Notes under the pieces: generated by a model
The model's input: only the letters and a program-made list of their open reading frames with translations
The model's database searches: none
Told to the model about the DNA's origin: nothing
Translations under genes and position numbers: made by a program
DNA from: Escherichia coli
Lineage (GTDB): Bacteria > Pseudomonadota > Gammaproteobacteria > Enterobacterales > Enterobacteriaceae
Reading direction: 5' to 3' (one strand)
Assembly (NCBI RefSeq): GCF_003334315.1
Contig: NZ_QOWR01000001.1
Length of the DNA stretch: 64,000 nt
Shown: piece after piece, positions 23,133-39,743 of the stretch
Position numbering within the stretch: the first letter of the stretch is position 1
Layout of the letters: every line of letters begins with the position of its first letter

Positions 23133-24731
23133 ATGCGTAAAACAGTGGCTTTTGGCTTTGTCGGTACCGTACTGGATTATGCCGGGCGCGGCAGTCAGCG
23201 CTGGTCAAAATGGCGTCCGACACTCTGTTTATGCCAGCAAGAATCGTTGGTCATCGATCGACTGGAATTGTTGCACGACGCCCGCTCGCGCTCGCTATTT
23301 GAAACGCTTAAACGCGATATCGCCAGCGTTTCGCCAGAAACAGAAGTGGTGAGCGTTGAGATTGAACTGCATAACCCGTGGGATTTCGAAGAGGTCTACG
23401 CCTGCCTGCATGATTTCGCCCGTGGTTACGAGTTTCAGCCAGAAAAAGAAGACTATTTAATTCACATCACCACCGGTACCCACGTCGCGCAGATTTGCTG
23501 GTTTCTGCTGGCAGAAGCGCGTTACCTGCCCGCCCGGCTGATACAATCTTCACCTCCGCGCAAAAAAGAACAGCCGCGCGGCCCAGGTGAAGTAACGATT
23601 ATCGATCTCGATTTAAGCCGTTATAACGCCATCGCCAGCCGCTTTGCCGAGGAACGCCAGCAAACGCTTGATTTTCTTAAGTCCGGCATTGCCACGCGTA
23701 ACCCCCACTTCAACCGCATGATTGAGCAGATCGAAAAAGTGGCGATCAAATCCCGCGCGCCGATTCTGCTTAACGGTCCAACCGGCGCGGGCAAGTCATT
23801 TCTGGCGCGACGCATCTTCGAGTTAAAACAGGCGCGGCATCAGTTTAGCGGCGCGTTTGTGGAAGTGAACTGCGCCACCCTGCGCGGCGATACCGCCATG
23901 TCGACGCTGTTTGGTCATGTAAAAGGCGCGTTTACCGGGGCGCGGGAATCTCGTGAAGGTTTATTACGCAGCGCCAACGGCGGAATGTTGTTTCTTGATG
24001 AGATTGGCGAACTGGGCGCAGACGAACAAGCAATGCTGCTAAAAGCCATTGAAGAGAAAACCTTTTACCCGTTTGGCAGCGATCGCCAGGTGAGCAGTGA
24101 TTTTCAGCTTATCGCCGGAACGGTGCGCGATTTGCGCCAGCTGGTTGCCGAAGGCAAATTCCGCGAAGATCTGTACGCGCGGATCAATCTCTGGACCTTC
24201 ACCCTGCCGGGGCTACGCCAGCGCCAGGAAGATATTGAACCTAACCTGGATTATGAAGTGGAGCGCCACGCCTCACTCACCGGCGACAGCGTGCGTTTTA
24301 ACACCGAAGCGCGGCGTGCCTGGTTGGCTTTTGCGACCTCTCCCCAGGCAACATGGCGCGGTAACTTTCGCGAACTTTCTGCCAGCGTCACGCGGATGGC
24401 CACCTTTGCCACTAGCGGACGCATCACTCTGGACGTGGTTGAAGATGAGATAAACCGTCTGCGCTATAACTGGCAGGAGAGCCGCCCCTCCGCGCTTACG
24501 GCGTTGCTGGGCGCAGAGGCAGAAAACATCGATCTCTTCGACCGTATGCAACTGGAACACGTTATCGCTATCTGCCGCCAGGCAAAGTCGCTTTCCGCAG
24601 CCGGACGCCAGCTTTTTGACGTTTCGCGCCAGGGCAAAGCCAGCGTCAATGACGCGGATCGGCTACGCAAATACCTGGCGCGTTTTGGTCTGACGTGGGA
24701 AGCCGTGCAGGATCAGCACAGCTCCAGTTGA
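23133..24731 (+). CDS. rtcR: Sigma-54-dependent transcriptional activator RtcR (N-terminal CARF-type sensor, AAA+ core)
   Basis: 532-aa ORF; AAA+ Walker A GPTGAGKS and GAFTGA motif (HVKGAFTGA); divergent from rtcBA. Confidence 0.93.
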
Positions 24732-25471
24732 ATATGGTGGTCCGTCAGCACCTGCATCACGCTTACTGGCGGCGGGGCGTCGGTGTAGACGGCATCTACC
24801 ATGCTGATGCTGCCCATATTGACCATCGCGTTACGGCCAAATTTCGAGTGATCGACAACCAGCATAACGTGGCGCGAGTTCTCAATAATGGCGCGTTTGG
24901 TGCGAACTTCGTGGTAATCGAACTCCAGCAGCGAGCCGTCGCTATCGATGCCGCTTATCCCCAGAATGCCGAAATCAAGGCGGAACTGGGAGATAAAATC
25001 GAGCGTCGCTTCGCCAATGATCCCGCCATCGCGGCTGCGTAATTCGCCACCGGCGAGAATAATGCGGAAATCTTCTTTTACCATCAACGTGTTAGCAACA
25101 TTGAGATTGTTGGTGACAATACGCAAATTGCTGTGATTAAGCAGCGCGTGCGCCACCGCTTCCGGCGTGGTGCCGATATCGATAAACAGTGTCGAGCCAT
25201 TGGGGATTTGCTCCGCCACTTTGCGGGCAATCCTCTCTTTTTCTTCGGTCTGGGTGGCTTTACGATCGTGCCACGGCGTGTTAACCGAACTGGAAGGCAG
25301 CGCCGCACCGCCATGGTGACGCAGGATCAGGTTTTGCTCCGCCAGCTCATTGAGGTCGCGGCGAATAGTCTGCGGGCTGACGGAGAAATGCTCTACCAGC
25401 TCTTCAGTACTGACATAACCCTGCTGTTTAACCAGTTCGATAATACCGTTGTGACGTTGTGTTTGTTTCAT
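24713..25471 (-). CDS. glpR: DeoR-family glycerol-3-phosphate repressor GlpR
   Basis: 252-aa ORF MKQTQRHNGIIELVKQQGYVSTEELVEHF...; 3' end overlaps rtcR 3' end. Confidence 0.95.
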   Translation of the reverse strand: MKQTQRHNGIIELVKQQGYVSTEELVEHFSVSPQTIRRDLNELAEQNLILRHHGGAALPSSSVNTPWHDRKATQTEEKERIARKVAEQIPNGSTLFIDIGTTPEAVAHALLNHSNLRIVTNNLNVANTLMVKEDFRIILAGGELRSRDGGIIGEATLDFISQFRLDFGILGISGIDSDGSLLEFDYHEVRTKRAIIENSRHVMLVVDHSKFGRNAMVNMGSISMVDAVYTDAPPPVSVMQVLTDHHIQLELC

Positions 25472-25487
25472 TTATAAATCCCTGGAA

Positions 25488-26330
<843 letters not shown>

Positions 26331-26362: not shown

Positions 26363-26767
<405 letters not shown>

Positions 26768-26827
26768 TTATACATATCACTCTAAAATGTTTTTTCAATG
26801 TTACCTAAAGCGCGATTCTTTGCTAAT

Positions 26828-26845
26828 ATGTTCGATAACGAACAT
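26828..26845. promoter_or_regulatory. GlpR operator (perfect palindrome) in glpE-glpD divergent region
   Basis: ATGTTCGATAACGAACAT read directly, about 35 nt upstream of the glpD start. Confidence 0.75.
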
Positions 26846-26878
26846 TTATGAGCTTTAACGAAAGTGAATGAGGGCAGC

Positions 26879-28384
26879 ATGGAAACCAAAGATCTGATTG
26901 TGATAGGGGGCGGCATCAATGGTGCTGGTATCGCGGCAGACGCCGCTGGACGCGGTTTATCCGTGCTGATGCTGGAGGCGCAGGATCTCGCTTGCGCGAC
27001 CTCTTCCGCCAGTTCAAAACTCATTCACGGTGGCCTGCGCTACCTTGAGCACTATGAATTCCGCCTGGTCAGCGAGGCGCTGGCTGAACGTGAAGTGCTG
27101 CTGAAAATGGCCCCGCATATCGCCTTCCCGATGCGTTTTCGCCTGCCACATCGTCCGCATCTGCGCCCGGCGTGGATGATTCGCATTGGTCTGTTTATGT
27201 ACGATCATCTGGGTAAACGCACCAGCTTGCCGGGATCAACTGGTTTGCGTTTTGGCGCAAATTCAGTGTTAAAACCGGAAATTAAGCGCGGATTCGAATA
27301 TTCTGACTGTTGGGTAGACGACGCCCGTCTGGTACTCGCCAACGCCCAGATGGTGGTGCGTAAAGGCGGCGAAGTGCTTACTCGGACTCGCGCCACCTCT
27401 GCTCGCCGCGAAAACGGCCTGTGGATTGTGGAAGCGGAAGATATCGATACCGGCAAAAAATATAGCTGGCAAGCGCGCGGCCTGGTTAACGCCACCGGCC
27501 CGTGGGTGAAACAGTTCTTCGACGACGGGATGCATCTGCCTTCGCCTTATGGCATTCGCCTGATCAAAGGCAGCCATATTGTGGTGCCGCGCGTGCATAC
27601 CCAAAAGCAGGCCTACATTCTGCAAAACGAAGATAAACGCATTGTGTTCGTGATCCCGTGGATGGACGAGTTTTCCATCATCGGCACCACCGATGTGGAA
27701 TACAAAGGTGATCCGAAAGCAGTGAAGATTGAAGAGAGTGAAATCAATTACCTGCTGAAAGTGTATAACGCGCACTTTAAAAAACAGCTTAGCCGTGACG
27801 ATATCGTCTGGACCTACTCCGGTGTGCGTCCGCTGTGTGATGATGAGTCCGACTCGCCGCAGGCTATTACCCGTGATTACACCCTTGATATCCATGATGA
27901 AAACGGCAAAGCACCGCTGCTGTCGGTATTCGGCGGTAAGCTGACCACCTACCGAAAACTGGCAGAACATGCGCTGGAAAAACTGACGCCGTATTATCAG
28001 GGTATTGGCCCGGCGTGGACGAAAGAGAGCGTGCTGCCGGGTGGTGCCATTGAAGGCGACCGCGACGATTACGCCGCTCGCCTGCGCCGCCGTTACCCGT
28101 TCCTGACTGAATCGCTGGCACGTCACTACGCGCGCACTTACGGCAGCAACAGCGAGCTGCTGCTCGGCAATGCGGGAACGGTAAGCGATCTCGGGGAAGA
28201 TTTCGGTCATGAGTTCTACGAAGCGGAACTGAAATACCTGGTGGATCACGAATGGGTCCGCCGCACCGACGATGCCCTGTGGCGTCGCACAAAACAAGGC
28301 ATGTGGCTAAATGCGGATCAACAATCTCGTGTGAGTCAGTGGCTGGTGGAGTATACGCAGCAGAGGTTATCGCTGGCGTCGTAA
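26879..28384 (+). CDS. glpD: Aerobic glycerol-3-phosphate dehydrogenase GlpD
   Basis: Track ORF 26864..28384; recognised start METKDLIVIGGGINGAGIAADAAGRG (FAD-binding GxGxxG). Confidence 0.95.
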   Translation: METKDLIVIGGGINGAGIAADAAGRGLSVLMLEAQDLACATSSASSKLIHGGLRYLEHYEFRLVSEALAEREVLLKMAPHIAFPMRFRLPHRPHLRPAWMIRIGLFMYDHLGKRTSLPGSTGLRFGANSVLKPEIKRGFEYSDCWVDDARLVLANAQMVVRKGGEVLTRTRATSARRENGLWIVEAEDIDTGKKYSWQARGLVNATGPWVKQFFDDGMHLPSPYGIRLIKGSHIVVPRVHTQKQAYILQNEDKRIVFVIPWMDEFSIIGTTDVEYKGDPKAVKIEESEINYLLKVYNAHFKKQLSRDDIVWTYSGVRPLCDDESDSPQAITRDYTLDIHDENGKAPLLSVFGGKLTTYRKLAEHALEKLTPYYQGIGPAWTKESVLPGGAIEGDRDDYAARLRRRYPFLTESLARHYARTYGSNSELLLGNAGTVSDLGEDFGHEFYEAELKYLVDHEWVRRTDDALWRRTKQGMWLNADQQSRVSQWLVEYTQQRLSLAS

Positions 28385-38639: not shown

Positions 38640-39743
38640 TTACGCCAGTTGACGAAGCATCCGACGCAGCGGCTCCGCGGCCCCCCACAGCAGCTGGTCG
38701 CCCACTGTAAAGGCTGACAGGAACTCTGGTCCCATATTCAGCTTACGCAGGCGGCCTACCGGCGTGGTCAGCGTGCCGGTAACGGCAGCTGGGGTTAGCT
38801 CACGCATAGTGATTTCCCGATCGTTCGGAACGACTTTCGCCCACGGATTGTGCGCAGCCAGCAGTTCTTCCACGGTCGGAATAGACACATCTTTTTTCAA
38901 TTTAATAGTGAATGCCTGGCTGTGGCAGCGCAATGCCCCGACACGCACACATAAACCATCTACCGGAATTACGGAAGATGTGTTGAGGATCTTGTTGGTT
39001 TCCGCCTGCCCTTTCCACTCTTCGCGGCTCTGACCGTTATCGAGCTGTTTGTCGATCCACGGAATCAGGCTACCCGCCAGCGGCACGCCAAAGTTATCCA
39101 CCGGCAGCTCACCGCTACGGGTTAAGGTTGTGACTTTGCGTTCGATATCGAGAATAGCAGAGGACGGGGTCGCGAGTTCATCTGCCACATGGCCATACAG
39201 ATGGCCCATCTGGGTTAATAACTCACGCATATGTCGCGCACCACCGCCGGAAGCGGCCTGGTAGGTTGCAACGGACACCCAATCAACAAGATCATTGGCG
39301 AATAAACCACCCAACGACATCAACATCAGGCTTACGGTACAGTTACCGCCAACAAAAGTCCTGATGCCATTATTTAATCCGTCGGTAATGACGTCCTGAT
39401 TGACGGGGTCAAGAATGATGATGGCGTCATCTTTCATGCGCAGAGACGATGCTGCGTCAATCCAGTAACCTTGCCATCCGCTTTCACGAAGCTTTGGATA
39501 GATTTCGTTGGTATAATCGCCGCCCTGACAGGTCACAATGATATCGAGGGCCTTTAGCGCCTCCAGATCAAAGGCATCCTGAAGTGTGCCAGTGGTTCCG
39601 CCAAAAGACGGCGCAGCCTGGCCAAGCTGAGAAGTAGAAAAGAAGACAGGGCGAATGGCGTCGAAGTCGCGCTCTTCAACCATGCGTTGCATGAGAACGG
39701 AGCCGACCATACCGCGCCAGCCGATAAAACCAACATTTTTCAT
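38640..39743 (-). CDS. asd: Aspartate-semialdehyde dehydrogenase Asd
   Basis: Track ORF 38640..39803; recognised start [21 protein letters not shown]... Confidence 0.95.

What the first reader, a model, noticed from the sequence alone, without database searches (positions are those of the whole stretch)
26820..26850. Perfect 18-bp palindrome ATGTTCGATAACGAACAT in the glpE-glpD divergent region
A perfect dyad like this is rare by chance and matches the expected GlpR operator half-site pattern, sitting just upstream of glpD. It is a clean example of operator architecture readable straight from sequence.
Basis: partly seen in the sequence, partly recalled or inferred. Interest (0 to 1): 0.25.

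Follow-up and report, generated by a model that had tools for sequence, protein, structure and literature searches.

The report
Known GlpR operator at glpD promoter
This is the well-studied primary binding site of the glycerol-3-phosphate repressor GlpR, sitting on the transcription start of the E. coli glpD gene; it is real and conserved, but already known, and it is not quite a perfect palindrome.

Summary
The 18-mer ATGTTCGATAACGAACAT is at window 26828-26845, in the 189-bp glpE<>glpD intergenic region of an E. coli chromosome. It is not a perfect palindrome: 8 of 9 position pairs are complementary (7-bp arms around a central ATAA). Dyads of that quality are not rare in this window (11 seen, 8.5 +/- 3.1 expected). 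What is exceptional is the specific sequence. The 20-mer 26827-26846, TATGTTCGATAACGAACATT, matches the GlpR operator consensus with 0 mismatches and is the only match with 3 or fewer mismatches in 64 kb. The mapped glpD start (-42 from the ATG, so window 26837) places the site at exactly -10 to +10, overlapping an extended -10. A weaker abutting 20-mer covers +11 to +30. In 72 distinct orthologous upstream regions chosen without reference to the operator, this is the most conserved intergenic segment. The left arm drifts with no compensating change in the right arm, which fits a protein-binding site and not a hairpin. GlpR is encoded 1.4 kb away. The feature is the textbook glpD operator: already known, low interest. 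Side note: a conserved GlpR-like site lies just upstream of glpR.

The parts
26827..26846 (.). Primary GlpR operator of glpD (O_D1 in my recollection of Larson's nomenclature).
   Evidence: 0 mismatches to the GlpR consensus and unique in the window. Lowest entropy of the intergenic region, 0.21 bits with 12 of 20 columns invariant, in 72 orthologous sequences. Found in the same register in all 67 distinct upstream sequences.
26847..26866 (.). Abutting weaker GlpR-like 20-mer, TATGAGCTTTAACGAAAGTG, at +11 to +30. It is the candidate tandem operator (O_D2).
   Evidence: 6 mismatches to the consensus, in exact 20-bp register with the first site. Its right half TAACGAAAG is strongly conserved, and the whole site has 0.32 bits mean entropy. 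On its own a 6-mismatch match is not significant (17 observed, 10 expected per window). The assignment rests on register, conservation and my memory of the published tandem footprint.
26821..26829 (+). Extended -10 element of the glpD promoter, TGcTAATAT (TG at -16/-15, hexamer TAATAT at -13 to -8). The hexamer's last three bases are the first three of the operator.
   Evidence: Position follows from the mapped start. TTTGCTA and the key hexamer positions are invariant in 72 sequences. The generic promoter scan found nothing because the -35 is poor.
26801..26806 (+). Weak -35-like hexamer TTACCT, 17 nt upstream of the -10.
   Evidence: Inferred from spacing. The ATGTTACC block is conserved.
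26837..26837 (+). glpD transcription start (+1), an A. The dyad axis lies between 26836 and 26837.
   Evidence: Mendoza-Vargas et al. 2009 (PMC2760140) list glpD p1 at -42 from the start codon, both in RegulonDB (Ye 1988, Yang 1996) and in their own mapping. The ATG is at 26879.
26766..26781 (.). CRP-like site TGTTAtacataTCACT, centred at -63.5 relative to the glpD start.
   Evidence: 2 mismatches of 10 to TGTGAnnnnnnTCACA. 8 of 16 columns invariant. glpD is stated to be CRP-regulated. The site assignment itself is inference plus memory.
26879..28384 (+). [quoted passage not shown]
   Evidence: Annotation. NCBIfam NF008899, 836 bits.
24713..25471 (-). glpR, the DeoR-family repressor that recognises the operator.
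   Evidence: NCBIfam equivalog NF008154, 553 bits against a cut-off of 331, full length. Annotation.

Best explanation
The dyad is the core of the primary operator of the E. coli glpD gene. When glycerol 3-phosphate is absent, the GlpR repressor binds the 20-bp site TATGTTCGATAACGAACATT, one subunit per half-site. The site covers the last bases of the -10 element and the first ten transcribed bases, so bound repressor blocks RNA polymerase from forming an open complex at glpD p1. An abutting weaker site (+11 to +30) probably holds a second dimer of the same tetramer, which would make binding cooperative. Glycerol 3-phosphate binding to GlpR releases it, and glpD is then transcribed with help from cAMP-CRP bound at about -63.5.

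Shown here: the sequence, its uniqueness, its position on the mapped start, the identity of the neighbouring genes, and its conservation. Taken from the literature: glpD is GlpR-repressed and G3P is the inducer. Inferred or remembered: steric occlusion, tetramer cooperativity, and looping to remote operators.
For: - The locus is E. coli glpR-glpG-glpE<>glpD.
- The 20-mer has 0 mismatches to the GlpR consensus and is the only match with 3 or fewer mismatches in 64 kb; shuffles give about 0.
- Two literature-listed natural GlpR sites from glpTQ share the same ATGTTC.../...CGAAC cores, at 6-7 mismatches to the consensus.
- glpD p1 starts 42 nt before the ATG, so the site spans -10 to +10.
- glpD is one of the four classical GlpR operons, with 4-8 sites each. 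G3P is the inducer and GlpR, CRP and ArcA regulate glpD.
- The exact 18-mer occurs in 26 places among about 100,000 species genomes. Thirteen are Escherichia, Citrobacter or Salmonella, all in the same place before a glpD orthologue; one more is in Photobacterium next to glpR.
- In 67 distinct glpD upstream regions anchored only on the coding sequence, the best consensus match is always in this register, with 0-3 mismatches.
- It is the least variable intergenic segment.
- The 56-bp block covering both sites is present in 5387 of 5426 complete E. coli genomes at 95% identity or more.
Against: - No binding data could be produced here, and the primary footprinting papers (PMC211429, PMC178619) are not in the held library. 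The statement that this exact 20-mer is the footprinted operator, and the consensus string itself, therefore rest partly on my memory.
- The second site is statistically weak on its own.
- The whole 120-bp promoter block is conserved, not the operator alone.
- The coordinates I remembered for the internal operators did not reproduce.
Confidence: 0.95

Rival explanations
1. The dyad acts at the RNA or single-strand level, as a hairpin (attenuator, terminator or stability element) in a transcript crossing the region.
For: If 26820-26855 were transcribed as a unit, it would fold into a 7-bp hairpin of -9.8 kcal/mol (z = -4.0) on the plus strand and -9.7 kcal/mol (z = -4.8) on the minus strand.
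Against: The mapped start (26837) lies at the dyad axis, so glpD mRNA carries only the right arm. The real leader, 26837-26900, has no unusual structure (z = +0.57). In orthologues the left arm changes from TT to CT or AG while the right arm stays CGAACAT, which breaks up to 2 of 7 pairs with no compensating change. No T-run follows the dyad, and no terminator-like site was found.
Confidence: 0.02
2. The site is bound mainly by a regulator other than GlpR, for example the paralogous DeoR (whose operator is similar), another DeoR-family protein, or ArcA.
For: E. coli has many DeoR-family paralogues (AgaR, YgbI, SrlR, DeoR, UlaR and YciT all hit the GlpR sequence). glpD is also ArcA-regulated.
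Against: The site is a 20/20 match to the GlpR consensus, and its half-site cores recur in the listed glpTQ GlpR sites. It accompanies glpD and glpR in every orthologous locus examined. The ArcA-like AATGTT repeats lie further upstream (26764-26803), not on the dyad.
Confidence: 0.02
3. It is a chance dyad with no function.
For: 18-mers with 8 of 9 symmetric pairs occur at the chance rate in this window (11 against 8.5 +/- 3.1). About 12 of the 26 exact matches across all species are in unrelated taxa with no glp gene nearby, against about 8.7 expected by chance.
Against: Its match to a specific consensus is unique. It sits precisely on the start point. It is the most conserved intergenic segment across 72 distinct orthologous sequences.
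Confidence: 0.01

Closest known systems
glpD operator O_D1 of E. coli K-12 (Ye & Larson 1988; Yang & Larson 1996)
   Same: Same organism, same gene, same promoter. The start is at -42 from the ATG, as those papers are cited for. The site covers the -10 element and the early transcribed region, as I remember the published footprint. I take this to be the same object.
   Different: Nothing known to differ. The papers could not be read here, so coordinate-level identity is inferred from the start position and my recollection.
Other GlpR operators of the glp regulon (glpFK O1-O4, glpTQ/glpACB)
   Same: The same repressor and the same half-site cores ATGTTC / CGAAC. Multiple sites per promoter.
   Different: Those sites are much more degenerate. 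The two listed glpTQ sites have 6-7 mismatches, and RegulonDB's set is said to have 9 of 17 sites with at least 9 mismatches out of 22. The glpD site is the consensus itself.
DeoR operators of the deo operon
   Same: A paralogous repressor family. From memory, a similar 16-bp palindromic operator (TGTTAGAA.TTCTAACA) and repression through several operators.
   Different: A different half-site core (TGTTAGA against TGTTCGA), a different inducer and a different regulon. From memory, exchanging the recognition helices did not transfer specificity (Zeng et al. 1996).
lac O1 with auxiliary operators
   Same: A primary operator overlapping the start point that blocks RNA polymerase, with reported help from remote or internal operators by looping (the title of Yang & Larson 1996).
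   Different: An unrelated repressor family. lac O1 is centred at +11 and is asymmetric. A reporter library did not find that paired GlpR sites (the glpTQ sites) enhanced repression at lacUV5.

Membership tests
GlpR (DeoR-family) operator of the glp regulon | Matches the 20-bp GlpR consensus WATGTTCGWTAWCGAACATW (two inverted 10-bp half-sites) | tested here: met
   0 mismatches, unique in 64 kb. The consensus string is from memory, but it is corroborated by the half-site cores in the literature-listed glpTQ sites.
GlpR (DeoR-family) operator of the glp regulon | Lies in the control region of a glp regulon operon | tested here: met
   It is 33 nt before the glpD ATG. glpD is listed as a GlpR-regulated operon.
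GlpR (DeoR-family) operator of the glp regulon | Positioned to interfere with RNA polymerase (overlaps the core promoter or start) | tested here: met
   Start at -42 from the ATG, which is 26837. The site therefore spans -10 to +10 and overlaps the -10 hexamer by 3 bp.
GlpR (DeoR-family) operator of the glp regulon | Cognate repressor encoded in the genome | tested here: met
   glpR at 24713-25471; NF008154, 553 bits, full length.
GlpR (DeoR-family) operator of the glp regulon | Occurs as an array of adjacent or remote operators that bind cooperatively | tested here: inconclusive
   An abutting 20-mer in register has 6 mismatches and a conserved right half. Only weak candidates with 7 mismatches were found inside glpD. 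The internal-operator coordinates I remembered did not match.
GlpR (DeoR-family) operator of the glp regulon | Conserved with the regulated gene in related species | tested here: met
   Same register in all 67 distinct upstream sequences, with 0-3 mismatches. Lowest entropy of the region.
GlpR (DeoR-family) operator of the glp regulon | Bound by GlpR in vitro or in vivo and released by glycerol 3-phosphate | not testable with these tools
   The published footprints (Ye & Larson 1988; Yang & Larson 1996) are cited, but the papers are not held.

The most novel reading that the evidence does not exclude
The glpD operator itself offers nothing new. The most novel reading left open concerns a second site: a conserved GlpR-consensus-like 20-mer at the 3' end of glpG, starting 37 nt upstream of the glpR start codon (window 25489-25508). 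It may be a real but unrecognised GlpR operator. It could autoregulate the proximal glpR promoter in many Enterobacteriaceae, where it has only 2-3 mismatches, and be decaying in E. coli (4 mismatches), which would explain why glpEGR was reported not to be GlpR-regulated there. Alternatively it could be a loop partner 1.34 kb from the glpD operator.
Probability: 0.25. Interest if true: 0.3.

Novelty: already known. Interest (0 to 1): 0.07.

Why it matters
It matters little as a discovery. This is the classical repressor-on-the-start-site switch that keeps aerobic glycerol-3-phosphate dehydrogenase off until glycerol 3-phosphate appears, and it was characterised in 1988-1996.

Its use here is as a calibration point. 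A reader working from raw sequence correctly recognised a real operator, but for a partly wrong reason, since dyad symmetry at this level is common.

The comparative data add one small point. Selection acts on the half-sites, especially the right one, rather than on the palindrome as such.

Tried and rejected
- Reading the primary papers (PMC211429, PMC178619, PMC178618): none is held. A full-text search for the operator string found nothing.
- The generic sigma-70 and terminator scan of 26600-26950 found nothing. The promoter has a poor -35 and relies on an extended -10, which I identified from the mapped start instead.
- The internal operator positions I remembered (+568 and +609) gave 16 and 11 mismatches to the consensus, so I dropped them. 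A comparative scan inside glpD found only three weak candidates with 7 mismatches: 27190-27209, 27283-27302 and 27616-27635. The internal operators cannot be placed from sequence alone.
- Dyad symmetry as evidence of function: rejected, because such dyads occur at the chance rate.
- RNA hairpin reading: rejected on the start position and the lack of compensatory change.
- The first cross-species sample was selected on the operator itself, so it cannot show that the operator is conserved. I replaced it with a sample anchored on the glpD coding start.
- The non-enteric exact matches (Bacteroides, Akkermansia, several beta-proteobacteria, an archaeon and others) have no GlpD, GlpE or GlpR homologue in the fetched DNA. 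Their number, about 12, is close to the 8.7 expected by chance.

Full report
**What is there**

The window is an E. coli chromosome. A 1.1-kb query around the finding matches all 5426 complete E. coli genomes, under the features glpG, glpE and glpD. The local gene order is rtcR, glpR, glpG, glpE <> glpD, yzgL, glgP. In window coordinates glpE is 26363-26689 on the minus strand and glpD is 26879-28384 on the plus strand, leaving a 189-bp divergent intergenic region. NCBIfam confirms GlpR (24713-25471, NF008154, 553 bits), GlpD and GlpE. The reported string ATGTTCGATAACGAACAT occurs once, at 26828-26845.

**Checking the observation**

The 18-mer is not a perfect palindrome. Its reverse complement, ATGTTCGTTATCGAACAT, differs at two positions, so 8 of 9 position pairs are symmetric. 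It has 7-bp perfect arms around a central ATAA.

Symmetry of this quality is not unusual in the window. It holds 11 18-mers with at least 8 of 9 symmetric pairs, where first-order shuffles give 8.5 +/- 3.1, and no perfect one.

The specific sequence is what stands out. The 20-mer 26827-26846, TATGTTCGATAACGAACATT, has no mismatch to the GlpR operator consensus WATGTTCGWTAWCGAACATW. That consensus is from my memory of the Larson laboratory's work. The next best matches in the 64 kb have 4 mismatches, and shuffles give essentially no site with 3 or fewer. As an independent check on the remembered consensus, two natural GlpR sites of glpTQ listed in the supplement of PMC7804116 carry the same ATGTTC.../...CGAAC cores, at 6-7 mismatches.

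**Position relative to the promoter**

Mendoza-Vargas et al. 2009 (PMC2760140) list the glpD p1 start at -42 from the start codon, both from RegulonDB (citing Ye 1988 and Yang 1996) and from their own mapping. With the ATG at 26879, +1 is the A at 26837.

| Element | Window coordinates | Position relative to +1 |
|---|---|---|
| CRP-like site TGTTAtacataTCACT | 26766-26781 | centred at -63.5 |
| Weak -35, TTACCT | 26801-26806 | -36 to -31 |
| Extended -10, TGcTAATAT | 26821-26829 | -16 to -8 |
| 20-bp site | 26827-26846 | -10 to +10 |
| Abutting 20-mer TATGAGCTTTAACGAAAGTG | 26847-26866 | +11 to +30 |

The dyad axis falls at the start point. The generic promoter scan missed this promoter because of the weak -35. 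The abutting 20-mer has 6 mismatches to the consensus and is in exact register, which fits what I remember as the tandem operator pair O_D1/O_D2. On its own a 6-mismatch match is not significant.

**Related sequences**

An exact-match scan of one genome per species (about 100,000 species) found the 18-mer in 26 places. Thirteen are Escherichia, Citrobacter or Salmonella (arizonae, diarizonae), and each lies about 34 nt before a glpD orthologue and divergent from glpE. One is in Photobacterium, just after the glpR terminator. There it overlaps a -10-like TATTAT ahead of a start codon, with the central bases in the opposite orientation. The remaining 12 or so are in unrelated taxa with no glp genes nearby, close to the 8.7 expected by chance.

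That sample was selected on the operator, so I drew a second one anchored only on the conserved GlpD N-terminal coding sequence in metagenome contigs. Among 67 distinct upstream sequences, the best consensus match within 130 nt always lies in the same register, starting 51-55 nt before the ATG, with 0-3 mismatches.

Per-column entropy over 72 distinct sequences:

| Segment | Mean entropy (bits) |
|---|---|
| 20-bp site | 0.21 (12 of 20 columns invariant) |
| -10 / -35 | 0.27 |
| Second site | 0.32 |
| CRP-like site | 0.37 |
| Shine-Dalgarno leader | 0.82 |
| glpE-proximal third | 1.34 |

The 20-bp site is thus the most conserved segment of the intergenic region.

Within the site the right half (AWCGAACATT) is almost invariant. 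The left arm changes from ATGTTCG to ATGCTCG or ATGAGCG in more distant relatives, with no compensating change on the right. That pattern fits two protein-contacted half-sites under separate constraint. It argues against a selected hairpin.

Within E. coli, the 56-bp block covering both sites is found in 5387 of 5426 genomes at 95% identity or more, and in 3534 at 99% or more.

**Mechanism**

The held literature states the following:
- glpD is one of the four classical GlpR-repressed operons, each with 4-8 GlpR sites.
- Glycerol 3-phosphate is the inducer that releases GlpR.
- glpD is controlled by GlpR, CRP and ArcA.
- The divergent glpEGR operon is not GlpR-regulated.

Combining this with the anatomy above: GlpR bound at -10 to +10 (probably with a second dimer at +11 to +30) occludes the -10 element and the start point, and so blocks open-complex formation at glpD p1. 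Glycerol 3-phosphate relieves this.

Steric occlusion, tetramer cooperativity, and looping to internal operators with IHF help are inference or recollection (the last from the title of Yang & Larson 1996). I could not verify them, because the primary papers are not held.

**Rivals**

- An RNA hairpin would be stable if the whole dyad were transcribed (-9.8 kcal/mol, z = -4). However, the mRNA begins at the dyad axis, the real leader is unstructured (z = +0.57), and there is no covariation.
- Another regulator is unlikely, given the 20/20 consensus match and the constant association with glpD and glpR.
- Chance is excluded by position and conservation.

**Comparison with what is known, and novelty**

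This is, to the best of my ability to tell, the published primary glpD operator itself. It differs from other GlpR sites only in being the consensus sequence, where the others are degenerate. Novelty: already known. Interest is low. The useful corrections are that the palindrome is imperfect, that dyad symmetry alone was not evidence, and that the site lies on the start point rather than upstream of the promoter.

**Things noticed in passing**

- The second-best consensus match in the window (25489-25508, 4 mismatches) lies in the last codons of glpG, 37 nt before the glpR ATG. It is conserved in about 40 of 46 distinct orthologous junctions, usually as AATG[C/T]GCGAAAACGAACATA with 2-3 mismatches, which is better than in E. 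coli. It could be a glpR-proximal GlpR operator.
- The other 4-mismatch hit (39137-39156) is inside asd and is probably chance.
- Phased AATGTT repeats at 26764, 26786 and 26797 resemble ArcA boxes.

Noticed in passing
window 25489-25508 (minus strand reads AATGCGCGAAAACGAAAATA); orthologous glpG-glpR junctions in L004, L075, L113, L116, L125 and others: A GlpR-consensus-like 20-mer (4 mismatches, against 0.23 such sites expected per window) sits in the last codons of glpG (N-A-R-K-R-K-stop, with two CGA Arg codons) and starts 37 nt upstream of the glpR ATG. It is conserved in about 40 of 46 distinct orthologous junctions and is usually closer to the consensus there (AATGTGCGAAAACGAACATA, 2-3 mismatches), while the codons just before it diverge. 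It may be a glpR-proximal operator (autoregulation) or a loop partner of the glpD operator. The Larson lab reports that glpEGR is not GlpR-regulated in E. coli.
   Followed up: partly
window 26827-26836, compared with loci L028-L147: The near-symmetry of the operator is specific to one clade. Escherichia and some Citrobacter and Salmonella carry ATGTTCG in the left arm. More distant relatives (GlpD about 84-91% identical) carry ATGCTCG or ATGAGCG, and the latter resembles the left half of the second site (TATGAGC). The right arm CGAACAT stays fixed throughout.
   Followed up: yes
window 26764-26803: AATGTT direct repeats at 26764, 26786 and 26797 (spacings of 22 and 11 bp) overlap the CRP-like site and the -35 region and are conserved in orthologues. 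They resemble phased ArcA-P boxes, and glpD is stated to be ArcA-regulated. I did not test them against an ArcA matrix.
   Followed up: no
window 26733-26741: An isolated conserved block, AGT[T/G]TACGT, lies inside the otherwise diverged glpE-proximal part of the intergenic region. It coincides with the TTTACG hexamer of a promoter-like pair (TTTACG...CATAAT) listed for this intergenic region by Shimada et al. 2014. Its role is unknown; it may belong to the glpE promoter.
   Followed up: no
L019 1-260 (Photobacterium ganghwense): The identical 18-mer (central bases in the opposite orientation) lies downstream of the glpR terminator. It overlaps a TATTAT -10-like hexamer about 55 nt before an ATG at the edge of the fetched DNA. 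Here glpE-glpG-glpR and the downstream gene point the same way, unlike the divergent enteric arrangement. The downstream gene could not be identified because the locus is cut.
   Followed up: partly
L003, L035, L085 (glpG-glpR junction): Some Citrobacter-like loci carry a REP-like insert (GTAGGCCGGATAAGCG...CATCCGGC) between glpG and glpR. It displaces or removes the GlpR-like site relative to the glpR start.
   Followed up: no
window 27190-27209, 27283-27302, 27616-27635: These are the only 20-mers inside glpD with a median of 7 or fewer mismatches to the GlpR consensus across 98 orthologous coding sequences. They are weak candidates for the reported internal 'action at a distance' operators. 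The positions I remembered (+568 and +609) do not match the consensus at all.
   Followed up: partly
window 39137-39156: The other 4-mismatch consensus match, TGCGTTCGATATCGAGAATA, lies inside the asd coding sequence. It is probably a chance match.
   Followed up: partly
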